Source: a virus (taxonomy: Duplodnaviria > Heunggongvirae > Uroviricota > Caudoviricetes). Taken from it: a stretch of DNA of 12,094 nt. Location: the IMG/VR virus record IMGVR_UViG_2802429253_000011; one strand, written 5' to 3'. A program made the position numbers and the translations under genes. The notes under the pieces were generated by a model. That model saw only the letters and a program-made list of their open reading frames with translations, made no database searches and had not been told where the DNA came from. Below are positions 2,506-12,094 of the stretch, in pieces; the first letter of the stretch is position 1; every line of letters begins with the position of its first letter.

Positions 2506-3177
2506 TCAGCGACCAATCACCACAATCTGGCCGCCATCCCCTTCGTCTGCCGTGCTGATCTCCTGAGAGACCACCCGCGACCCCACGCGCATTTCACCGT
2601 ACAGAACGGGCAGAACATTGCCCTGGGCAACCATGTTATCCAGTGAGGAGAAATAGGTGTTCTGTTTGCCGTTATCTGTACTTGCTGCCGTGGGCGTCCT
2701 GGCTTTCGGTGCCAGCATCTGCGCCACACCACCAAGTACCATACTGGCACCGAGAGAAAACAGGATACCGGTCATACCACCGGCCCCAATGGCTGCCCCC
2801 CATGCTGTAAGGGTGGCTCCGGCGGTAAAGAATGATCCGGCAATGGCGGCTGCTCCCAGGACAATCTGGAATACACCACCTGACTTGGCCCCGGCGACTC
2901 TGGGAACAATATGAATCACAGCGCCATCAGGCAGAGTCTCATGTAACTGCGCCGTTAATCCGGACGTGCTGACATCCTGCCCGGCAATCCGTACCTGATA
3001 CCAGCCGTCGCTCAGTTTCTGACGAAACGCCGGGAGCTGTGTGGCCAGCGCCCGGATGGCTTCGGCCCCCGTTTTCACACGCAGATCGATGCGGCGGCCA
3101 AATCGTTGTAAATCCCCGTAAAGGCAGATGCGTGCCATGCCTGGTGACGCCAGAGGGAGTGTGTGCGTCGCTGCCAT
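2506..3177 (-). CDS. Lambda tail-tip assembly protein I (gpI) homolog, 223 aa
   Basis: Translation MAATHTLPLASPGMARICLYGDLQRFGRRIDLRVKTGAEAIRALATQLPAFRQ... with a Gly/Ala-rich hydrophobic C-terminal half matches lambda gpI as recalled, nearly identical over the full length. ATG at 3175-3177, TGA at 2506-2508. Confidence 0.7.
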   Translation of the reverse strand: MAATHTLPLASPGMARICLYGDLQRFGRRIDLRVKTGAEAIRALATQLPAFRQKLSDGWYQVRIAGQDVSTSGLTAQLHETLPDGAVIHIVPRVAGAKSGGVFQIVLGAAAIAGSFFTAGATLTAWGAAIGAGGMTGILFSLGASMVLGGVAQMLAPKARTPTAASTDNGKQNTYFSSLDNMVAQGNVLPVLYGEMRVGSRVVSQEISTADEGDGGQIVVIGR

Positions 3178-3266: not shown

Positions 3267-5180
3267 TCATGCTCCATTCGATTTCAGCAATCCACGATAA
3301 TCGAGGGCCGCGACACCTGCATCTATGCGCACCTTCCAGGCGACACCATCAACAGTAAAGCCCACCTGCTCCTCAAGATATGGCGTATCCATACCATCAA
3401 GATAAGCGACTTCTATTGTGTCCATCCCCTTAGCTGCGGCTACATACCATTCCTTGCTATTGGCCTTATCAAGACGTGGCTCAACAATTACTTCTGCCAT
3501 ATCTTTCACCACGTTAATGATGCCGGGGTTCTGATTGATAGTGCCCTCATCACCAACCGGAAAGACTGATGACGATGACAGAATGGCGCGACGCGCGGCA
3601 GATTCCAGCGCGGCAGGGACCAGAACAAAAGCAGGGGTAATATTCAGTGAGTCGCCGTTAGCATCCTCCTGGAGGCGCATCAGCTTACGGGCTTCATCAA
3701 GCCCCACCATGTCCATATCCTTCGCAATAAGATTTTTATGATCGGCATGGAATAACGCTTTACCATCCGTAAACTTGCCGTTGCTGGTTAACAGGAGATA
3801 AACCAGATTGCCAACTGTTCTGGCGGCTGCGCGTCCCATCGCCATGGGGATTGTAGTTAACTGGGTCAGGTCATCGTTGATAATGGCCTGACGGGTAACG
3901 GAAAAAATATTCCCGTACGTGGCCAGCGCAATAGGTACACCTTTATCGCTGGTGGTGATGTATTTATATTCCGCACCTTCCGGTACTTTATCCAGCTTTG
4001 AAAAACCATTCAGACCAACGCGCTTTGCTTCATGAAAGTTTGAAAGCGAACCGGTACGCGTCCATTTCTGGAACGTTTCGCCGCTGTCCTGCCAGCCTTT
4101 CAGTACAGATTTTTCAGCCCCACCAGCCAGAATATGAGAAAAATCACTGCTGCTGTGTGTAAAAGCCGCATTAACAACCTGCGAGCGATTAATAAAACCA
4201 CTCACAGTGATACCACGATCAACCAGTGATGCCTGGGCCATTTCAAAAAGGCTCATCATCGCGTAAGGGTTGCCTCGTTCAGGGCGTTCATACCCAAGAC
4301 GGGAATAAAGCCCCTGACGAATTGCATCACCTGTTATGTTTCCGTTTCCGGCATAGATATGAGGCGGGGTATTTTTATTGGATGGCGTGGACTCGCGCCC
4401 CAGCTCGTTCAACAGCTTTTCACGGGCCATTTCCGGTGTACATGATGCATCTTCCAGACACGCCATTTTGATCCCGTCGTAACGACTGCCGAACAGGCTA
4501 AACACTTCACTTATTCCATTGATGCGTTTCTGTTCATTACCAGCAATATTTGCCGCTCCCTGTGGCGGTGTAATCATTCCTTTAATGGTTTCCGGCATAT
4601 GTAAAAAATCTCCTGTACGTTTCGATTCAATTCGCGCCATTGCTCTGACGGATGGCAACAATTCATCAGCAAAACCGTGCTTAAGGCATTCTTTCCCATC
4701 CATCCAGGTTTCATCCTCCAGCATGGCGGTAATTTCCTGTGCTGATTTGCCCGTTTTTCTGGCATAAGCAGGGATTAACACGGTTTCCACCTTATCCAGC
4801 AAATCAGCATAATCACGCATATCGCCAGCATTTCCGCCAGAGATCCCCCACGGTTTATGGATCATCATCATGGCGTTCTCCGGCATCACTACACGATCGC
4901 CAGCCATTGCGACCACCGAAGCCATTGAAGCCGCAACACCATCGATATAAACCGTAATGTCTGCCGGATGATTCCGTAGCAGGTTATAGATGGCGATGCC
5001 TTCAAACACATCACCACCTGGTGAATGGATCCTCAGATTGATATGTGAAACATCGCCAAGGGCTTTCAGGTCTTCCGCGAACTGCTTTGCAGTAACACCG
5101 AAGCCGCCAATCTCCTCATAGATAGATATATCCGCCGCTCCGCGAACATCCGCCGCCTTAATGGTGTACCAGCGATTCAT
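3267..5180 (-). CDS. Fusion of prohead protease (ClpP/S14-like) and HK97-fold major capsid protein, 637 aa
   Basis: N-terminus carries ClpP-like motifs (INLRIHSPGGDVFEGIAIYNLL, DGVAASMASVVAMAGD, MMMIHKPWG); the C-terminal ~400 aa has the composition and length of an HK97-family capsid protein. Start ATG 5178-5180 overlaps the upstream stop (TAATG). Confidence 0.8.
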   Translation of the reverse strand: MNRWYTIKAADVRGAADISIYEEIGGFGVTAKQFAEDLKALGDVSHINLRIHSPGGDVFEGIAIYNLLRNHPADITVYIDGVAASMASVVAMAGDRVVMPENAMMMIHKPWGISGGNAGDMRDYADLLDKVETVLIPAYARKTGKSAQEITAMLEDETWMDGKECLKHGFADELLPSVRAMARIESKRTGDFLHMPETIKGMITPPQGAANIAGNEQKRINGISEVFSLFGSRYDGIKMACLEDASCTPEMAREKLLNELGRESTPSNKNTPPHIYAGNGNITGDAIRQGLYSRLGYERPERGNPYAMMSLFEMAQASLVDRGITVSGFINRSQVVNAAFTHSSSDFSHILAGGAEKSVLKGWQDSGETFQKWTRTGSLSNFHEAKRVGLNGFSKLDKVPEGAEYKYITTSDKGVPIALATYGNIFSVTRQAIINDDLTQLTTIPMAMGRAAARTVGNLVYLLLTSNGKFTDGKALFHADHKNLIAKDMDMVGLDEARKLMRLQEDANGDSLNITPAFVLVPAALESAARRAILSSSSVFPVGDEGTINQNPGIINVVKDMAEVIVEPRLDKANSKEWYVAAAKGMDTIEVAYLDGMDTPYLEEQVGFTVDGVAWKVRIDAGVAALDYRGLLKSNGA

Positions 5181-5386: not shown

Positions 5387-5487
5387 AGTAACTTCCTCTT
5401 ACTGACTAAACTGTGCACATTATTGATCGATAAAAGTGGTAGATAAACATATTTCTATCATAAAAACAGATTAATGAGATTCAGACA

Positions 5488-5511
5488 CAAAAAAGCCGGA
5501 GAAAATCCGGC
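5488..5511 (-). terminator. Intrinsic terminator or attenuator in the leader upstream of the 68-aa gene
   Basis: On the minus strand GCCGGA-UUUUC-UCCGGC followed by six U (plus-strand stem 5495-5511, A-run 5489-5494). Confidence 0.5.
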
Positions 5512-5698
5512 ATAAATATCCCGCCATCTGAACACGTTTTGACACAGGCAACTCCACCTGGCAGGTGAAAAACAGATTTATTTATATATTTCAATTAATT
5601 GCAAACTGGTCTAATGACAGGGAGAAAAAAATATTGTACAGGTGAAAACAGAAATAACTTTTAATTATCAATAAATTATCACACATGCTGCCGCCGCC

Positions 5699-5771
5699 AT
5701 GAAAATGCAAAAACCAGCCTTTTTCCGCGCCGCTCCCGCCCCGTGGCAGGTCACTACACCGGGAGGACCCA
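5699..5771. repeat. Copy B of the 73-bp direct repeat (partner at 2349-2421)
   Basis: Differs from copy A only at 5715, 5751, 5755 and 5756. Abuts the terminator at 5772-5795. Confidence 0.8.
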
Positions 5772-5795
5772 TAAAAAAGCCGGATTGCTCCGGCT
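5772..5795 (-). terminator. Intrinsic terminator ending the primase/origin transcription unit
   Basis: Stem AGCCGGA (5778-5784) / TCCGGCT (5789-5795), loop TTGC; on the minus strand it is followed by six U (complement of A5773-A5778). Confidence 0.6.
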
Positions 5796-5931
5796 TCTGT
5801 CACTCGTTGCTTAAAACGGTATGTTATCCCCGTACGGATCATCATTCCCCGCCTGTTGTTTTGGTGTGCTTCGCTGTCATAGGCTTTATCTCACAGCAGT
5901 AAATTAAAATTTTTGCGTTTTAACCCTTCAC

Positions 5932-6154
5932 CTGTTCACCTTTTGATATTTTCTCTTTTAATTCATAATGTTAAGGGGTGAACAGTTTCACAAAAACTAT
6001 TCACCAACTGTTCACCACTGTTCACCCTTGAAGCTCAATAAACAATCAAAAAGGTGAACAGTGAATAGTTTGGTGAACAGTTCATAAATAACTGTTCACC
6101 CTATAATATACTGATATAAAAGATATTTATGACAGGGTGAACAGTGGTGAACAG
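5932..6154. repeat. Iteron array, candidate replication origin (P4 ori/crr-like)
   Basis: Eleven copies of CTGTTCACC or its complement GGTGAACAG (two of them variants, CTATTCACC and GTGAATAG) at 5932, 5977, 5997, 6008, 6018, 6053, 6061, 6072, 6092, 6136 and 6146, in both orientations, interleaved with AT-rich tracts (5941-5974, 6101-6134). Ends 20 bp from the primase stop. TGTTCACC is the type I iteron bound by P4 alpha protein. Confidence 0.75.
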
Positions 6155-6173
6155 TTATTCCATAAGTTTAATT

Positions 6174-7985
6174 TTAGCTATCGTCATTAGTGACCGATAC
6201 ACATGATGGCATCCAGTCTTCTGATTCCTCCGTCAGTGTCACGTTTGAACGCAAACCGTGCTTCGTTTTCCGTTTCATATACTCCCTGCCATATTCCGCC
6301 ATTGCCCCCGGCATATCTTTACCGAAGCGCGTCAGTGTTACAGGTTTACCAAACCCATGTGCCCTCATATAAGCCAGATAGGCATGATAGAGATACCTGC
6401 GTGGGCTGAATGGCACAATTTCAGCATTACCCACTAACAGGCCATCACACATTACCGACGCCATGAGATAGCCGCAGAAGTCCACCAGCGAATCCCCCTC
6501 TCGCTTTATCGCCAGTGCTTCTTCAGATTTCTGCTGCTCATATAACAGGCGTCTGGCTTCGTCCTGGTCAGCAAACCGTGTAAGCAGATGGCGAATCACT
6601 ACCGCCAGCTCACCTTCTATTTTTTCCGCCAGCATTGGATCGCGTTCGTTCTCCGGTACAACTTCCGAAAAATTGAATATCACCCGACGACGTGAGATCC
6701 CCCCGCTGCGGTCACTGAATGACATGGCGTTATTGTTAACCGCCAGCACTACTGCCGGAATACGCGTTGAGTAGGGGGCTTTGTGTTTCGGGTCAATTGC
6801 CACCTTGTCACCGCCTGTAATAGCCTTAATCCCTGCCCCATCACCAGCGTAGCGGGTCATATCCGGCATGATAATCAGCGAAAAGCCAACCACTAACGCG
6901 CGTTCCCTTGCATCTTCCAGCGCCTTCATGCTTGCCGATACTGTGTTGGCCTTACCCGCCAGCATGGTGCAAATCTCCGCCATCACGCTTTTACCACTTC
7001 CCCCTGGACCTGTTACCTCAATGAATAACTGCCAGTCGTACCGGTTCGCCAGCACCATGAATAATGCAGCCAGTACGCGATCCGCCTTGCGGTCATTCTC
7101 AGCCACCGAACGGCGTAACCACTTCCAGAAATTCGGCGCATGTGTTGCCAGCGTTTCCCCCTCTGCTGGTGGGCTGAAAGGTAATTCACTGGCAATTAAC
7201 AACCAGTCGTTTTTGTTATGCTCCCGAAAATTACCTGTTCTGGTATCAAATACCCCGTTACTGAATCCAATCAGGTTACGGGCTGTATTCCCCATAACAG
7301 GCAAACTTAACTTCATGGTATCGACCGCCGATTTAATGGCGTTCTGCGAATAGCTGATCTCCGCATCAATGAAAATCTGTGCCATAGCTCGCTGTAATTC
7401 TTTATCCTGTACTGGCTCCCATACAACGCCGTTGTAATGGTGAACAGTATCAGAGTCGGCATGAATCGCCAGTTCACCGCCATAATGTGCCAGGAGAACT
7501 TCGCCGCGTTGACTTGCTCCCATCTGGTTAAGCGCCAGTGATGAAGCGTTATCGTCTTTTACCCGCTCTTTTTTCTTTACAGGCAGTTCAACTACCTTTT
7601 TCTTTTCCGCCTGCTCTGCCCGTTCACGTTCCAGATATTCGCGCCAGTTCTCCCGTTTCTGGCTGTGCATTCCTTCAGGATAATAATCAGCATCCCTGAC
7701 ACCGGCCGCTGCCAGTTTCTGCCCGATGGTATTAACAAGCCCCGGACGCAATAACCCCGCCTGATAGAGACGCACACGATAGCGTCCGTCCGGTACGATT
7801 TGCAGGTTGTCCAGTTCGGCAAGTTGTTGCTCTCCAAGCCAGACAGGAGGCACGTTATCGCCAGCCAGTCGCCCGTCCTGTTCCTGCCACTGCTTCGCAT
7901 GTGCCCACGCATCACTACCCGCAAAAATGATGACTTCCGTCATTTTGTCACGTGGCTGGTGTTTTAAATTTGGCGCTTTTTTCAT
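6174..7985 (-). CDS. P4 alpha-type primase/helicase (N-terminal primase region, SF3 helicase with Walker A GPGGSGKS)
   Basis: Long ORF with VTGPGGSGKS, followed by residues typical of the phage/plasmid primase P4-family C-terminal domain. Start assigned to ATG 7983-7985, which overlaps the upstream stop (ATGA); track start is a GTG at 8000. Iterons lie directly downstream. Confidence 0.8.
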   Translation of the reverse strand: MKKAPNLKHQPRDKMTEVIIFAGSDAWAHAKQWQEQDGRLAGDNVPPVWLGEQQLAELDNLQIVPDGRYRVRLYQAGLLRPGLVNTIGQKLAAAGVRDADYYPEGMHSQKRENWREYLERERAEQAEKKKVVELPVKKKERVKDDNASSLALNQMGASQRGEVLLAHYGGELAIHADSDTVHHYNGVVWEPVQDKELQRAMAQIFIDAEISYSQNAIKSAVDTMKLSLPVMGNTARNLIGFSNGVFDTRTGNFREHNKNDWLLIASELPFSPPAEGETLATHAPNFWKWLRRSVAENDRKADRVLAALFMVLANRYDWQLFIEVTGPGGSGKSVMAEICTMLAGKANTVSASMKALEDARERALVVGFSLIIMPDMTRYAGDGAGIKAITGGDKVAIDPKHKAPYSTRIPAVVLAVNNNAMSFSDRSGGISRRRVIFNFSEVVPENERDPMLAEKIEGELAVVIRHLLTRFADQDEARRLLYEQQKSEEALAIKREGDSLVDFCGYLMASVMCDGLLVGNAEIVPFSPRRYLYHAYLAYMRAHGFGKPVTLTRFGKDMPGAMAEYGREYMKRKTKHGLRSNVTLTEESEDWMPSCVSVTNDDS

Positions 7986-8281
7986 TTCTGCTCTCTCCAC
8001 GCGGCAATCATGTTTTTCAGTTCCTGTAGTTTTTTATCCACATTCACACGTGACACATGGTTATTTCTGGAAAGCGGGATTTCCCGCCTGAATCTGCTAA
8101 TAAAGATCTCCACGTTCAGCGAACTATGAAATGAATAGCCATCACGAATAAAATACACACGGTCAAACATTATCGATTTTACTGTTACTCTGTTGCCGTT
8201 CTTATCCCGATAAATAGCGCCGGGGATAATTTTGGGATGTGCATAACCGCTGGCAGTCAAGCCAGATAAATACGTTCTCAT
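7982..8281 (-). CDS. Hypothetical 99-aa protein, coupled to the primase
   Basis: ATG 8279-8281; stop overlaps the primase start. No family recognised. Confidence 0.5.
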   Translation of the reverse strand: MRTYLSGLTASGYAHPKIIPGAIYRDKNGNRVTVKSIMFDRVYFIRDGYSFHSSLNVEIFISRFRREIPLSRNNHVSRVNVDKKLQELKNMIAAWREQK

Positions 8282-8842: not shown

Positions 8843-8887
8843 GCCCTGCGAGTGGTAACGACACTTGCGGGGCTTTGTTTTTTGTTG
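8843..8887 (+). terminator. Plus-strand intrinsic terminator or attenuator in the divergent control region
   Basis: 12-bp stem (8843-8854 / 8862-8873) with two G-U wobble pairs that only pair in plus-strand RNA, 7-nt loop, then UUUGUUUUUUGUUG. Confidence 0.5.
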
Positions 8888-8899
8888 CACTTACTGTTA

Positions 8900-8950
8900 A
8901 TGTACGTACGTAATATTGATGATAATAGGAGTTACGTACGTACATGTCAA
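8900..8950 (-). promoter_or_regulatory. Leftward promoter (TTGACA-17-TATTAT) overlapped by a pair of 14-bp perfect inverted repeats (operator)
   Basis: On the minus strand, -35 TTGACA is at 8950-8945 and -10 TATTAT at 8927-8922 with a 17-bp spacer. ATGTACGTACGTAA (8900-8913) and TTACGTACGTACAT (8932-8945) are exact reverse complements and flank the RBS and start codon of the RHH gene. Confidence 0.6.
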
Positions 8951-9135
8951 CATTAAAGCGGGATAAATCACCACGCGGCGAGGGATGGTCGCCGACATTC
9001 CAGATACGAATTAGCAAAGAACTACGCCAGCAAGTAAACGAGGCAGCAACCGCCGATGGCCTAACCCTCGGCAATTGGTTTAAAGAATTAGCTCGTGCCG
9101 AACTAAAGCGACGCGGCATTGAACCTAAAGGCTGA
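8944..9135 (+). CDS. Ribbon-helix-helix (Arc/CopG-like) DNA-binding protein, 63 aa
   Basis: FQIRISKELRQQVNEAATADGLTLGNWFKELARAEL has the strand-helix-helix pattern of RHH regulators. AGGAG at 8927-8931; start codon sits inside the right operator arm. Confidence 0.55.
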   Translation: MSTLKRDKSPRGEGWSPTFQIRISKELRQQVNEAATADGLTLGNWFKELARAELKRRGIEPKG

Positions 9136-9611: not shown

Positions 9612-9821
9612 TTACACCGTCTGCGTTCTGCGAGTGGATGCAAGATAAGCATCGAGATCAGTGCGCATATACAGCACTTTGCGCCCCAGCTTATGGAAAG
9701 GGATTTTTACCTTGCCAGTACAGGCCCAGTTCGCCAGCGTTTGATTGTTAACGCCAAGGTAGGCAGCAGCTTCAGCACGTGTAAGGCGGTCAGTTGATAA
9801 ATCAGATTTCTTTAAATTCAT
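9612..9821 (-). CDS. AlpA/Xis-family helix-turn-helix DNA-binding protein, about 69 aa
   Basis: LTRAEAAAYLGVNNQTLANWACTGKVKIPFHKLGRKVLYMRTDLDAYL fits the small AlpA/excisionase-type HTH family. ATG 9819-9821 chosen; an alternative GTG at 9830 gives 72 aa. Confidence 0.7.
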   Translation of the reverse strand: MNLKKSDLSTDRLTRAEAAAYLGVNNQTLANWACTGKVKIPFHKLGRKVLYMRTDLDAYLASTRRTQTV

Positions 9822-9882
9822 ATCTATCACCGTGTACTTCTAAGTAACAACGGTGATAAATATCAATCAATGGGTATTTTGT

Positions 9883-9968
9883 TTTTAGCCCAATAGCCAG
9901 TTGCTGTGGGGAGGTTACCAGTTATTTAGCCTTAATAGCCAGCTATTAAGATACACTAGCCAGCTATT
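9883..9968. promoter_or_regulatory. Operator-like repeats upstream of the AlpA-like gene
   Basis: Two ~24-bp direct repeats (9883-9907, 9925-9948) each containing the ATAGCCAG motif; the second holds the perfect palindrome AATAGC-CA-GCTATT (9934-9947); a third copy TAGCCAGCTATT is at 9957-9968. Confidence 0.45.
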
Positions 9969-10689
9969 GGGGGTGAACAAGTTCAAACGAAGAATATTTA
10001 TCAGGTCTTGGTGGTTGTGCTCCTGATTCTTTAATCCATTTATCCAGAGTGTTTTTACTTACTTTCCCATGATAGTAAACAGAAAGCTCGTTCAATAAAC
10101 CTGTTTTACTGGCTTTAGGGTACTTTTCCCATGTTAGTTTAATTACGTGCATAACTTCATTGTAATAATGATTTCTTGGTTTGCGCGCTTTTTCTTTCTG
10201 TGATAAGGATAAAGCATCTTTTATTTTTTTATCTTTTTCATGGTTCGATATAATTTCTTCAAAAAAGTCATTAAGCAATAACTCAACACCAACCCTAGTA
10301 AGTTTGTCTGCGTGATTACGCATTCCGACATGGTACAATGCAACTGCTGAATTTAAAGTATCGACAACCTGACAAGATAGTTTACTATCAAATATTAAAA
10401 AACCACATGAATCCATTCTTATAGCTAATTCAATAGGATATTGCTCGATTTCTCTTAATTCTAAACCATAACACAAAAGAAATTCTCTTGTTGGATACTT
10501 TGATTTATAAAAATAATCTCTTATATCATCAATCAAGCGTTTTATAGCCTCTATGGTGGAGTTTTTCGGGGATAAAGATACAGGAACGTTTAAAACTGAA
10601 GAGTCTCGCCCACCAGTAATTAAATCATTCATAACCGAATAAATAATATATTGTTTGACCGATATATTGTTATCACCCATATATGTCAT
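9964..10689 (-). CDS. Hypothetical protein (238-241 aa), AT-rich, translationally coupled to the integrase
   Basis: ORF noticeably more AT-rich than its neighbours by eye. Candidate ATG at 10678-10680 overlaps the integrase stop (ATGGGTGA); track start is at 10689. No motif recognised (no Walker A, no transmembrane segment). Confidence 0.55.
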   Translation of the reverse strand: MTYMGDNNISVKQYIIYSVMNDLITGGRDSSVLNVPVSLSPKNSTIEAIKRLIDDIRDYFYKSKYPTREFLLCYGLELREIEQYPIELAIRMDSCGFLIFDSKLSCQVVDTLNSAVALYHVGMRNHADKLTRVGVELLLNDFFEEIISNHEKDKKIKDALSLSQKEKARKPRNHYYNEVMHVIKLTWEKYPKASKTGLLNELSVYYHGKVSKNTLDKWIKESGAQPPRPDKYSSFELVHPQ

Positions 10690-12094
10690 TCTTTTCTTGT
10701 ACTATAGCAAATAGTAAACGACGTTTTTCATCATCACTCATGCCCTCCAGTGCGGAAAGTAATTGCGCATCGATAGATTTTTTACTCTCCACCAGCCCGG
10801 CATGTTCCAGAATTGCCCGTTCTATCCGTGATGCTGGCTCCAGCAGTTCATCAGCACCGAAATGTAAATACCCCTGCGTTACGTCGGCACTTCGCATAGT
10901 GCGGTGATTCATCAGGCGCTTGAGGATGTAATTACCCACGCCCACCAGCTCAGCAACCGTTCCGAACGTCCGGCGTGCGTCGTGCCACTTAAACGGGACA
11001 GGGAAGAGCATTTCATCGTTCGCCTCAGGAATGGTAGCCGCGCTTATCCGGTCTATGATGTGCCGTGTCTCCTGAATCACTCCCTTCACGCCAGGAAACA
11101 CCAGCACATCATCAGCAGCTTTGTTTTTTAGCCTGCGAAGAAACATTTTCCGCAACGTATCAGTGATCGGCAGTTCAAGCGGATCCCCGTTTTTCGTGGT
11201 GTCTATCCAGAAAAAGCGACCGCCCATATTCACGCGATCCCACGTAAGGCCAAAAACTTCTGATTTCCTCAGTCCGGTAAACAGTGCCATTTCCACGGCA
11301 TCACATACCGTAACAGCTATATCATCCCTTTCCTGTTCGCCCTGGTCGCGCACAGCAGCTACAGCAGCAAACCAGCGGGGAAAATCATGCAGGCGGATAC
11401 GTTCCGTTTTTCTTACCGTTCCGTGCCACTGGCGCTTGGTGCTCAGTACCAGAGTCGGCGGATCCGGTAAAAGAGTATTACCCGCATCATCACGGTAATG
11501 ATCATGCGCAAACCGACACACAGCACGTAGCGCACGCGCCCATAAATCGGCCTGTGCCTTGCTTCCTGTACCAACCCCAGCCCGTAACGTGGTTTTATCA
11601 GCACCGAACCATACAGCCCCATCAGTGATGGCCTTATGCCGTTGTTCCACCCGTTCGCGGGAAATACTGGCGAGGGTATGGGCCATCCAGTCACCGGAAT
11701 AATTCTGTAATATGCTGCGGTACTGTTTTTCTGTGGAGGGTTTCAGGCGGTGGCCACGATTTTTTACGTAGGCGTCAATCGCCTCACTCAGCGTTATCAT
11801 GGCCTTGTTGTTAGTGCGCTTTGCTATGTTCGGATTTATCCCCGTTGTGGCGACTTCGCCAAGGAGTTCCATAGCTTTAGCCCTGGCATTATCCACGCTC
11901 AGATCAGGAAAACGCCCCAGCGTTGCACGAATAAATTTTCCGTTACGCTTACGGGAAATGCAGAAACTTTTCACACCAGACGAACCTACACGGACACGCA
12001 GCCCGTTAACCTCCGTATCACCATATTCGACCTGTCCATGTTCCGGCGTTGGCAGTTCTGCAATTTTTACTTTAGAGAATCTGAATAATTTCAC
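10673..12094 (-). CDS. Tyrosine recombinase/integrase (P4-type with N-terminal arm-binding DUF4102-like domain), 5' end at window edge
   Basis: N-terminus GLRVRVGSSGVKSFCISRKRNGKFIRATLGRFPDLSVDNARAKAMELL is typical of P4-family integrase arm domains; C-terminal HDARRT and downstream Tyr region fit the catalytic domain. The only in-window start is a GTG at 12092-12094, so the true start may lie beyond the window. Confidence 0.8.
   Translation of the reverse strand: MKLFRFSKVKIAELPTPEHGQVEYGDTEVNGLRVRVGSSGVKSFCISRKRNGKFIRATLGRFPDLSVDNARAKAMELLGEVATTGINPNIAKRTNNKAMITLSEAIDAYVKNRGHRLKPSTEKQYRSILQNYSGDWMAHTLASISRERVEQRHKAITDGAVWFGADKTTLRAGVGTGSKAQADLWARALRAVCRFAHDHYRDDAGNTLLPDPPTLVLSTKRQWHGTVRKTERIRLHDFPRWFAAVAAVRDQGEQERDDIAVTVCDAVEMALFTGLRKSEVFGLTWDRVNMGGRFFWIDTTKNGDPLELPITDTLRKMFLRRLKNKAADDVLVFPGVKGVIQETRHIIDRISAATIPEANDEMLFPVPFKWHDARRTFGTVAELVGVGNYILKRLMNHRTMRSADVTQGYLHFGADELLEPASRIERAILEHAGLVESKKSIDAQLLSALEGMSDDEKRRLLFAIVQEKNDIYG

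What the first reader, a model, noticed from the sequence alone, without database searches (positions are those of the whole stretch)
9964..10689. AT-rich unknown ORF translationally coupled to the integrase: candidate accessory or anti-phage cargo
The ORF is markedly AT-richer than the island core, overlaps the integrase stop (ATGGGTGA) and sits between int and alpA, a position where satellites often carry variable cargo such as defence systems. No recognisable motif was found, so it may be an uncharacterised single-gene function.
Basis: partly seen in the sequence, partly recalled or inferred. Interest (0 to 1): 0.7.

Follow-up and report, generated by a model that had tools for sequence, protein, structure and literature searches.

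The report
Conserved satellite regulator, not variable cargo
The AT-rich gene after the integrase is real, but it is a fixed core gene of this phage-satellite lineage rather than swappable defence cargo: an uncharacterised protein with a DNA-binding tail and a fast-changing head that probably controls the switch gene next to it.

Summary
A 238-aa ORF (9964-10680, minus strand) has 33% GC against 51% for int. Its ATG overlaps the int stop (ATGGGTGA), and it lies upstream of an alpA-like excisionase-family HTH gene.

The cargo or defence reading is not supported. Every relative I could place (44/44 loci) sits in the same int-X-alpA-like triad, across at least six genera, several integration sites and three types of replication module. 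Starting from the integrase instead, 24 of 25 loci carry X. The exception carries a Mor-family transcription activator in the same slot. AT-richness is a trait of the whole family.

X has no Pfam, PADLOC, PDB-sequence or phage match. Its C-terminal ~75 aa are conserved, basic, and fold as a winged helix. Its N-terminal ~100-160 aa are hypervariable and are exchanged as a cassette.

Four dyad sites (AATAGCCAGCTATT-like) lie between the X stop codon and the alpA-like promoter, with cores exactly 21 bp apart. They co-vary with the X C-terminus rather than with AlpA.

Best reading, inferred and not shown: X is a site-specific regulator co-made with integrase that gates alpA-like expression, with a variable sensor head. 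That makes it functionally comparable to SaPI Stl, but it is not a member of that family.

The parts
9964..10680 (-). Gene X: 238-aa protein of an uncharacterised family. An alternative upstream ATG lies at 10689. The stop codon TAG is at 9964-9966.
   Evidence: ORF list. RefSeq CDS in an identical locus. Homologues and family size. dN/dS 0.11-0.27.
10673..10680 (-). ATGGGTGA overlap between the X start codon and the int stop codon (translational coupling).
   Evidence: Sequence. A 1-20 nt overlap recurs in the related loci.
10190..10760 (-). Exchangeable variable cassette: the last ~28 codons of int plus X residues 1 to ~163 (hypervariable N-terminal part and long helix).
   Evidence: Window versus L012: 95-98% identity in int, 35-60% from ~10760 to ~10190, then 100% downstream. 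Domain shuffling in both directions. N-terminal dN/dS reaches above 1 in close pairs.
9967..10190 (-). Conserved basic C-terminal domain of X (residues ~164-238): KPRN arm, three helices and a short strand. Predicted winged-helix DNA-binding fold.
9955..9968 (.). Operator-like dyad O1 (ACTAGCCAGCTATT). It overlaps the X stop codon.
   Evidence: Pattern search, 1 mismatch. Phase analysis.
9934..9947 (.). Operator-like dyad O2 (AATAGCCAGCTATT). This is the best palindrome; its arms extend to 9 bp (CTTAATAGC/GCTATTAAG).
   Evidence: Exact match..
9913..9926 (.). Operator-like site O3 (GGTTACCAGTTATT). Degenerate, but keeps the CCAG core and one half-site.
   Evidence: Core exactly 21 bp from O2 and from O4. 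The same position is occupied in most related loci.
9892..9905 (.). Operator-like dyad O4 (AATAGCCAGTTGCT). It is the site nearest the promoter and ends about 20 bp upstream of the -35-like hexamers.
9816..9867 (-). Conserved inverted repeat (TTATCACCGT...ACGGTGATAG) bracketing the weak -10-like region. Its 3' arm covers the Shine-Dalgarno-like GGTGA and the AUG of the alpA-like gene.
   Evidence: Repeat I1. RNA fold -23.3 kcal/mol, z -5.65. Kept in 17 diverse loci, with compensatory changes in 4 of 7 pairs.
9612..9821 (-). alpA-like excisionase-family HTH gene (69 aa), the presumed regulatory target.
   Evidence: Pfam HTH_17. TIGR01764 at 38.8 bits and phrog_66 'excisionase and transcriptional regulator'.
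10673..12094 (-). Tyrosine integrase (473 aa) with an arm-binding domain and a ~65-aa extension after the catalytic region. It is the upstream partner in the same operon.
   Evidence: Pfam Arm-DNA-bind_3 and Phage_integrase. RefSeq annotation.

Best explanation
X is a core regulatory protein of the integration/induction module of a lineage of Enterobacterales phage satellites (PICI / capsid-forming PICI type). It is not cargo.

X is translated together with the integrase from one mRNA, so it should be present while the island sits quietly in the chromosome. Its conserved, basic C-terminal winged-helix domain most likely binds the four dyad sites. Those sites lie on one face of the DNA, 21 bp apart, between X's own stop codon and the weak promoter of the alpA-like gene.

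Bound there, X would decide whether the alpA-like switch/excision gene fires. I lean towards repressor or roadblock: X would stop int-X read-through and promoter leak from setting off AlpA's positive feedback. The conserved hairpin that hides the alpA-like ribosome-binding site on read-through transcripts would help. An activator role is not excluded.

The hypervariable, cassette-exchanged N-terminal part would be the input domain. It might recognise a helper-phage protein, as the SaPI Stl repressors do.

Shown here: the gene is real and under purifying selection; the synteny is strict; the protein is modular; the fold class of the C-terminus; the phased site array and its co-variation with the C-terminus.

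Inferred: DNA binding by X, the target promoter, the sign of regulation, and any phage-sensing role.
For: 1. Core status. The same int-X-alpA-like triad occurs in Escherichia, Salmonella, Klebsiella, Pectobacterium, Serratia, Yersinia and metagenomes. It occurs at different integration sites and next to three replication-module types. All 44 X loci have the alpA-like gene downstream, and 33 of 34 have int overlapping upstream. 24 of 25 loci found through int carry X.

3. Binding-site array. Three 14-bp matches cluster within 77 bp, and the pattern gave 7 matches in the window against 1.14 expected (0 of 200 shuffles reached 7). The four CCAG/CTGG cores are spaced 21, 21 and 21 bp. The same phase is kept in most diverged loci while the spacers change, with 20 bp in L007 and L011. 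No further sites occur elsewhere in the island or near int.

4. Specificity co-variation. Similarity of the repeat zone follows the X C-terminus (partial rho 0.79, permutation p about 0.0005). It does not follow AlpA (0.22, p about 0.06). L011 and L017 have a different X C-terminus and a different motif (AAnCCAGAT), although the L011 AlpA is 78% identical to the window's. L038 and L015 have similar AlpA recognition helices but different X types and different motifs.

5. Modularity. Cassette breakpoints fall at the domain boundary. Shuffling occurs in both directions. The C-terminus is strongly constrained and the N-terminus is relaxed or diversifying.

6. A regulatory slot. The one int relative without X has a Mor-family transcription activator in the same position.

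7. Context from the literature. [quoted passage not shown]
Against: - No experiment supports any of this. DNA binding, target and sign of regulation are all inferred.
- The site array lies wholly upstream of the -35 region. That position suits activators or roadblocks better than a classical repressor.
- Co-variation of the sites with the X C-terminus is confounded by physical linkage, because O1 overlaps the X stop codon. The loci are also phylogenetically related, so the permutation p-value overstates independence.
- AlpA is known to activate its own promoter in EcCICFT073 (PMC6092414). It could be the protein that uses these sites.
- The island also has a separate, divergently transcribed Arc-like small gene (8944-9135). 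That gene could be the real master repressor.
- The N-terminal domain has no recognisable fold match, so its 'sensor' role is conjecture.
Confidence: 0.55

Rival explanations
1. X is an anti-phage or phage-interference protein. The variable N-terminal domain would recognise or block a phage component, and the protein would protect the host or favour the satellite.
For: - PICIs are reported to carry immune systems at their 5' or 3' ends (PMC11364771, citing earlier work).
- X has a hypervariable, recombining N-terminal part with dN/dS up to above 1 in close pairs, as arms-race genes do.
- The gene is AT-rich and has no known family.
- Repressor-like proteins can also give immunity, so this reading need not exclude a regulatory role.
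Against: - No PADLOC hit.
- The slot shows no gene turnover: the same family is always present.
- No enzymatic or toxin-like motif; the model is all-alpha with a winged-helix end.
- No relatives in 50,697 phage records, and no structural match among viral proteins.
- A dedicated phased site array lies next to the gene.
- Recognisable defence cargo in a relative sits elsewhere (GAPS4 after pri in L005).
Confidence: 0.12
2. X is a partner of the integrase: an accessory or directionality factor that is made in step with Int. It would act on Int or on recombination complexes rather than on transcription.
For: - Strict translational coupling to int in the related loci.
- The integrase has an unusual ~65-aa C-terminal extension, and its last ~28 codons travel in the same exchange cassette as the X N-terminus.
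- Winged-helix and HTH proteins often serve as architectural recombination factors.
Against: - The site array is about 2.2 kb from the int-proximal island end. No copy of the motif lies upstream of int or elsewhere in the island, so the sites are not att arm sites.
- An excisionase-family protein is already encoded next door.
- Co-travel of the int tail with the X N-terminus is expected from simple linkage and from the overlap of the two reading frames.
Confidence: 0.12
3. The four phased sites belong to AlpA (autoactivation) or to another host or island protein, and X has some unrelated function still unknown. The link between X and the sites would be an effect of adjacency only.
For: - AlpA activates its own promoter in EcCICFT073 (PMC6092414).
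- The sites lie upstream of the -35 region, as activator sites usually do.
- Linkage confounds the co-variation test.
Against: - Repeat-zone similarity tracks the X C-terminus far better than AlpA (partial rho 0.79 against 0.22).
- Loci with near-identical AlpA DNA-reading regions carry different motifs when X differs (L011 against the window; L015 against L038).
- Dyad sites spaced two helical turns apart fit a dimeric winged-helix protein better than the head-to-tail arrays typical of Xis-type proteins. This last point rests on general knowledge, not on a test here.
Confidence: 0.15

Closest known systems
SaPI Stl / Rpr master repressors of Gram-positive PICIs
   Same: - Encoded next to int and co-expressed with it in the quiescent island.
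- Sits at the boundary with the excision/induction genes.
- Two-module build: a conserved DNA-binding domain plus a highly divergent domain. In Stl that divergent domain binds different helper-phage proteins (PMC6092414).
- X shows the same conserved/variable split, with allele diversity on one island backbone.
   Different: - No sequence relation, and no XRE-type HTH hit.
- Domain order is reversed: the DNA-binding domain is C-terminal.
- X is transcribed in the same direction as its presumed target rather than divergently.
- The sites lie upstream of the promoter rather than over it.
- Repression and phage-protein binding are untested.
Mor/C family transcription activators (phage Mu middle and late regulators)
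   Same: - A Mor-family gene (PF08765, 30.2 bits) occupies the identical int-to-alpA-like slot in a relative whose integrase is 62% identical.
- Both are small, have a C-terminal HTH, and would act at dyad sites just upstream of a weak promoter.
   Different: - X gives no Mor hit.
- X is about twice as long.
- X has a variable N-terminal domain and a four-site phased array.
Winged-helix repressors that bind phased dyad boxes (ArgR/AhrC, PadR, MecI/BlaI, MarR/SarX types)
   Same: - The fold class of the C-terminal domain.
- Palindromic sites repeated at a 21-bp period. From general knowledge, this recalls the paired ARG boxes of ArgR.
   Different: - Sequence identity is 5-20% only, and no profile match.
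- The wing is formed with the extreme C-terminal strand.
- The rest of the protein has no counterpart.
AlpA / Vis / excisionase-family HTH proteins of PICIs and P4
   Same: Small DNA-binding regulators of the same module. The neighbour gene is one of them.
   Different: X has no HTH_17, TIGR01764 or Phage_AlpA signal, is 3-4 times longer, and has a different fold.

Membership tests
Known anti-phage defence systems (PADLOC-DB v2) | Significant match to a model of a known or candidate defence protein | tested here: not met
   0 families at E up to 1.
Variable cargo slot ('hotspot') of a satellite | Unrelated genes, or no gene, at the same position in related islands | tested here: not met
   The same family fills the slot in 44/44 X loci, 24/25 int-ascertained loci and all related E. 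coli islands inspected. The only replacement seen is another regulator, Mor.
SaPI Stl/Rpr-type master repressor | XRE-type N-terminal HTH and sequence relation to Stl | tested here: not met
   No HTH_3 or XRE hit in X or in 83 family members. The DNA-binding domain is C-terminal.
SaPI Stl/Rpr-type master repressor | Encoded beside int, co-expressed with it, at the border of the induction/excision genes | tested here: met
   Overlaps the int stop, and lies 142 nt upstream of the alpA-like gene.
SaPI Stl/Rpr-type master repressor | Transcribed divergently from the operon it represses, with operators over that promoter | tested here: not met
   X is co-directional with the alpA-like gene. The sites lie about 20 to 100 bp upstream of the -35-like hexamers.
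SaPI Stl/Rpr-type master repressor | Repression lifted by binding of a specific helper-phage protein | not testable with these tools
   Only indirect evidence: a hypervariable, shuffled N-terminal part.
Winged-helix DNA-binding domain superfamily | Three-helix bundle with recognition helix plus beta wing; structural match to solved members | tested here: inconclusive
Sequence-specific transcription regulator | Cognate repeated binding sites near a promoter | tested here: inconclusive
   A phased four-site dyad array was found that co-varies with the X C-terminus. Binding itself is not tested.
Mor transcription activator family (PF08765) | Match to the Pfam model above its gathering score | tested here: not met
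   No hit for X or its family. The L072 slot protein does match.
Excisionase / AlpA family (HTH_17, TIGR01764, Phage_AlpA) | Match to these models; about 60-80 aa | tested here: not met
   No hit for X. X is 238 aa. The neighbour gene matches instead.
Phage-derived gene | Homologues in phage genomes | tested here: not met
   tblastn against 50,697 phage records gave no match. BFVD fold search gave nothing at E up to 0.001.

The most novel reading that the evidence does not exclude
X is the missing helper-phage sensor and master gatekeeper of a Gram-negative PICI lineage. It would be made with integrase and would sit on the four phased operators to keep the alpA-like switch off. A specific helper-phage protein binding its variable N-terminal domain would release it, or convert it to an activator. 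Cassette exchange of that domain would retarget the satellite to new helpers. This would be a convergent, structurally unrelated counterpart of SaPI Stl. It would explain how helper phages turn on alpA in these islands.
Probability: 0.25. Interest if true: 0.8.

Novelty: new variant of a known kind. Interest (0 to 1): 0.55.

Why it matters
How Gram-negative PICIs sense their helper phage is an open point. The founding paper says a global repressor is 'unclear' and that helper phage induces alpA by an unknown route (PMC6092414). I found nothing later that resolves this in the papers I could search.

This gene family offers a concrete, testable candidate for at least one lineage:
- a protein co-made with integrase;
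- a conserved DNA-binding end matched to a phased operator array in front of the switch gene;
- a swappable head that could set helper specificity.

If this is right, it gives a handle for predicting which phages mobilise which islands, and for engineering satellite induction. If it is wrong, the result still corrects an annotation habit: an AT-rich unknown gene next to int in a satellite is not automatically defence cargo.

Tried and rejected
- Sequence libraries. Pfam, NCBIfam, PHROGs and PADLOC on X gave nothing usable. A family profile against PDB sequences gave nothing.
- Pfam scan of 83 family members. Only scattered weak HTH_32 and HTH_Tnp_Tc3_2 hits.
- Genome-contig scan with the family alignment found no confirmed locus, because there is one genome per species and the family is strain-variable. 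The broader alignment A3 was too diverse to seed a scan.
- YfjH of prophage CP4-57 also lies between intA and alpA. I rejected it as a relative: it is on the opposite strand, is 318 aa, and hhalign gives probability 0.15%.
- A guess at the position of EcCICFT073 in the CFT073 genome landed in a lambdoid prophage and told me nothing. Whether the experimentally studied PICIs carry X therefore remains unchecked.
- The Cell 2022 paper on PICI immune systems is not held in the library.
- Sigma-70 consensus scan. No promoter-like site on the gene strand between X and the alpA-like gene, and no terminator there. So the promoter assignment (-35 at 9861-9870, -10 at 9838-9847) is weak and made by eye.
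- Int arm-type sites as an explanation for the repeats. Rejected because the motif is absent near int and near the island end.
- Rfam. Only the tRNA was found.
Full report
**Setting.** The window holds mug (177-~683), a tRNA with anticodon CAU (809-884, annotated tRNA-Ile in RefSeq) and then a phage satellite whose main genes all lie on the minus strand. In gene order these are:
- int, 10673-12094;
- the ORF in question, called X here;
- an alpA-like gene, 9612-9821;
- an Icd-like gene;
- a DUF4222 gene;
- a D5-type primase, 6174-8000;
- a ClpP-capsid fusion, 3267-5180;
- a small terminase, 1710-2282.

A 1501-nt stretch spanning part of int, X and the alpA-like gene is 100% identical in E. coli 06-00048, between tRNA-Ile and nfeF.

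**Observation.**
- The ORF is there: 9964-10689, 241 aa.
- RefSeq starts it at the second ATG (10680, 238 aa). That start aligns with residue 1 of the homologues.
- GC is 0.326 for X, 0.511 for int and 0.476 for the alpA-like gene. The X region holds the lowest GC windows of the 12 kb.
- The ORF is a real gene. About 144 clusters at 50% identity exist in a library of 1.84 billion proteins. Pairwise dN/dS is 0.11-0.27 overall.
- One label needs correcting. The 'alpA' neighbour is an excisionase-family HTH protein (TIGR01764 38.8 bits, Pfam HTH_17, phrog_66). It gives no hit to the Pfam Phage_AlpA model.

**Cargo or core?** I placed relatives of X in their genomic context in three independent ways.

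1. Exact-protein look-ups of eight diverse homologues gave the same picture every time. The sources were Salmonella, Klebsiella, Pectobacterium, Serratia, Yersinia and metagenomes.
   - Each locus had an integrase of 473-505 aa, then an overlap of a few bases, then X (205-268 aa), then 100-170 nt, then an HTH_17 gene.
   - This held at different chromosomal sites.
   - It held next to three kinds of replication gene: D5/Pox_D5 primase, AAA_25, and Toprim/DUF927.

2. A scan of viral contigs with the X family brought the set to 44 loci in all.
   - All 44 have the alpA-like gene just downstream.
   - 33 of the 34 with enough upstream sequence have the integrase ending inside the start of X.

3. 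Starting from the integrase instead, 24 of 25 loci with a complete integrase (62-100% identical) carry X.
   - The exception is L072, the most distant integrase.
   - It has a 127-aa Mor-family transcription activator in the same slot (PF08765, 30.2 bits against a cut-off of 24.9).

In complete E. coli genomes, every related island I opened at the nfeF site carries an X allele of 228, 238, 245 or 266 aa. The window allele is in 22 genomes and the L011 allele in 54-58, out of 5426.

X is AT-rich in all 12 loci measured (GC 0.30-0.38, against 0.48-0.52 for int). Low GC is therefore a family trait and not a sign of recent import.

PADLOC finds nothing. No phage record encodes a relative. In the Klebsiella relative, a recognisable defence system (GAPS4) lies downstream of the primase. 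The literature names that position as a PICI cargo site (PMC11364771).

The slot is therefore not a cargo hotspot in this lineage. X is a core gene.

**Anatomy of the protein.**
- Alignments show a sharp split.
  - The last ~75 residues are highly conserved: EKAxKPRNxYYxEVMxVIxLTWEKYPxASKTGL...YHGKVSxNTLxxWIKxSGxxPPKPxKYxxFELVxPQ.
  - A middle segment (~100-163) is moderately conserved.
  - The first ~100 residues are barely alignable across the family.
- The AF2 model of the whole protein (pLDDT 80) is all-alpha, with a 45-residue helix (121-165) leading into a three-helix end.
- Modelled alone, the C-terminal 93 residues reach pLDDT 86.
- These scores are ordinary for so small a domain, but they are not proof.
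- Weak profile hints point the same way: HTH_32, HTH_Tnp_Tc3_2, the HTH part of an ISNCY transposase, and phrog_2345 'transcriptional regulator'.
- The domain is basic (pI 9.7, family median 9.8). The rest of the protein is acidic (median 5.3).
- The N-terminal part has no convincing structural relative in the PDB or among viral proteins.

**Modular evolution.**
- Against an E. coli island with the same backbone (L012), identity changes in steps.
  - It is 95-98% through int down to about 10760.
  - It falls to 35-60% down to about 10190.
  - It is 100% from there on, through the X C-terminus, the intergenic region and the alpA-like gene.
  - The downstream breakpoint is at residue ~163, the domain boundary.
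- Against L011, the exchanged block is larger. It takes in the int tail, all of X, the intergenic region and the first ~25 codons of the alpA-like gene.
- Across 138 full-length members, some pairs have above 90% identical C-termini but only 15-29% identical N-termini. The reverse also occurs: P0160 and P0124 are 98% identical in the N-terminus and 40% in the C-terminus.
- dN/dS is 0.05-0.11 in the C-terminus. It is much higher in the N-terminus and exceeds 1 in the two closest pairs, though those values rest on few substitutions.

**DNA next to the gene.** Between the X stop codon and the alpA-like start lie four related 14-bp dyads:
- O1 at 9955-9968, which overlaps the stop codon;
- O2 at 9934-9947, AATAGCCAGCTATT, whose arms extend to 9 bp;
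- O3 at 9913-9926, which is degenerate;
- O4 at 9892-9905.

The evidence that this array is real:
- With up to three mismatches the pattern gives 7 matches in the window against 1.14 expected. None of 200 shuffles reached 7. All the good matches are in this 77-bp stretch.
- The CCAG/CTGG cores are exactly 21, 21 and 21 bp apart, which is two helical turns.
- The same register (cores 33, 54, 75 and 96 nt into the extracted intergenic segment) is kept in most diverged loci although the spacers differ. It is 20 bp in L007 and L011.
- No further copies lie near int or elsewhere in the island. That argues against integrase arm sites.

**Whose sites are they?**
- The motif changes with the type of X C-terminus.
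  - Loci of the ...FELV(H/F)PQ type have ATAGC-YR-GCTAT-like dyads.
  - L011 and L017 carry an insertion before the recognition helix (KWNDxP...) and have AAnCCAGAT-type sites.
  - L041 and L042 have CATAGCCTGGCTATG-like or CATAACCGGCTATG-like sites.
- L011 keeps an AlpA-like protein 78% identical to the window's, with its C-terminal 44 residues identical, yet has the other motif.
- L038 and L015 share the AlpA recognition-helix sequence SPQTLANWA but have different X types and different motifs.
- Over 30 distinct loci, k-mer similarity of the repeat zone correlates with X C-terminal identity after controlling for AlpA (partial rho 0.79, permutation p about 0.0005). It correlates only weakly with AlpA after controlling for X (0.22, p about 0.06).
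- Two caveats apply. O1 touches the X coding sequence, so linkage favours X. The loci are also not independent.

**The alpA-like start region.**
- A conserved inverted repeat (TTATCACCGT-N16-ACGGTGATAG, 9816-9867) brackets the weak -10-like region. As RNA, it pairs the Shine-Dalgarno-like GGTGA and the AUG. The fold is -23.3 kcal/mol, z -5.65, and 0 of 200 shuffles did as well.
- Its core is kept in 17 diverse loci, with compensatory changes in 4 of 7 pairs.
- No terminator and no consensus sigma-70 promoter was found on the gene strand between X and the alpA-like gene.
- One consistent reading: int-X transcripts run on into the alpA-like gene but cannot be translated there. Only transcripts that start between the two arms can be translated. 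This resembles the fold-back protection of IS10/IS50 transposase genes against outside transcription (general knowledge; not tested here).
- The repeat could equally be a protein-binding palindrome.

**Most likely mechanism.**
- Putting this together, X is best explained as a site-specific DNA-binding regulator.
- It is produced with integrase while the island is integrated.
- It occupies the phased O1-O4 array and so controls the alpA-like gene.
- I lean towards a gatekeeping role: a roadblock to read-through and damping of a promoter that feeds back positively through AlpA. An activator that is switched on by a signal fits the upstream position of the sites just as well, and a Mor activator occupies the same slot in L072.
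- The variable, cassette-exchanged N-terminal part is the obvious candidate for the input domain. The parallel with SaPI Stl suggests a helper-phage protein as the signal. In Stl, a conserved DNA-binding domain is joined to divergent domains that bind different phage proteins (PMC6092414).
- For Gram-negative PICIs, the literature I could search still describes a global repressor as unclear and helper induction of alpA as unexplained (PMC6092414).
- All steps from 'binds DNA' onward are inference.

**Rivals.**
- A defence or interference function cannot be excluded, because the N-terminal part evolves like an arms-race domain. It has no positive support, and the cargo-slot premise fails.
- An integrase-partner role is suggested by the coupling and by the integrase's C-terminal extension. 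Against it, the sites are 2.2 kb from the island end and an excisionase-family gene is already present.
- The sites might belong to AlpA, which autoactivates in EcCICFT073. The co-variation argues against this, but not decisively.
- The island also has a divergently transcribed Arc-like small gene (8944-9135) with its own palindromes. That gene could be the principal repressor, leaving X a narrower role at the alpA-like promoter.

**Verdict.**
- The cargo/defence interpretation is not supported. Translational coupling to int and the gene's uncharacterised status are.
- X belongs to an unnamed family specific to satellites of Enterobacterales.
- In kind it is a transcription-factor-like regulator of a mobile element. 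Its unusual features are its build, its strict coupling to int, its phased operator array and its exchangeable head.
- I rate it a new variant of a known kind, of moderate to good interest. The interest lies mainly in giving a testable candidate for how these islands are kept silent and switched on.

Noticed in passing
window 9816-9867 (minus strand): A conserved hairpin or palindrome, TTATCACCGT-N16-ACGGTGATAG, covers the Shine-Dalgarno-like sequence and the AUG of the alpA-like gene (-23.3 kcal/mol, z -5.65). Compensatory arm changes occur across loci. It could silence translation on int-X read-through transcripts. From memory, its half-site TATCACCG equals the consensus half-site of lambda operators.
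   Followed up: partly
L072 3935-4318: In a satellite whose integrase is 62% identical, the int-to-alpA-like slot holds a 127-aa Mor-family transcription activator (PF08765, 30.2 bits) instead of X.
   Followed up: partly
window 8944-9135 (+) and 8880-8943: A small plus-strand gene has a weak Arc-like repressor hit (phrog_228, E 1.8e-4). RefSeq calls the gene at the equivalent position in relatives a YlcI/YnfO family protein. It is transcribed divergently from the Icd-like/primase operon. Its upstream region carries paired TACGTACGTAA / TTACGTACGTA palindromes. It is a second candidate control point for the island.
   Followed up: no
window 2506-3177 (minus strand): The satellite encodes a 223-aa homologue of lambda-type tail assembly protein I (phrog_32, E 7e-83), although satellites of this kind are said to lack tail genes. 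It lies next to a ClpP-capsid fusion gene (3267-5180) and a small terminase (1710-2282). No large terminase or portal gene was seen in the window.
   Followed up: no
window 10673-10870 (int C-terminus) and related loci: The integrase carries a ~65-aa extension after the catalytic region, with a conserved LS(D/E)EEKR(K/R)L(I/L)F motif and a variable last ~10 residues. The last ~28 codons belong to the same exchange cassette as the X N-terminus.
   Followed up: partly
L005 13265-14618 (Klebsiella quasipneumoniae): A relative of the island carries a GAPS4 defence pair (PDDEXK_GAPS4, GAPS4b_N) downstream of the primase. Recognisable defence cargo in this lineage therefore sits there, not between int and the alpA-like gene.
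   Followed up: no
L001 3336-6224 (E. coli 06-00048): The island whose int-X-alpA-like stretch is 100% identical to the window has a different packaging module (separate major capsid and decoration genes). Its terminase gene is split by an IS21-family insertion (ISEc10). The regulatory module and the late module are therefore mosaic.
   Followed up: no
window 5400-6170: An AT-rich stretch (GC 0.36-0.42) without a convincing gene lies downstream of the primase. It may be the replication origin region. Not examined.
   Followed up: no
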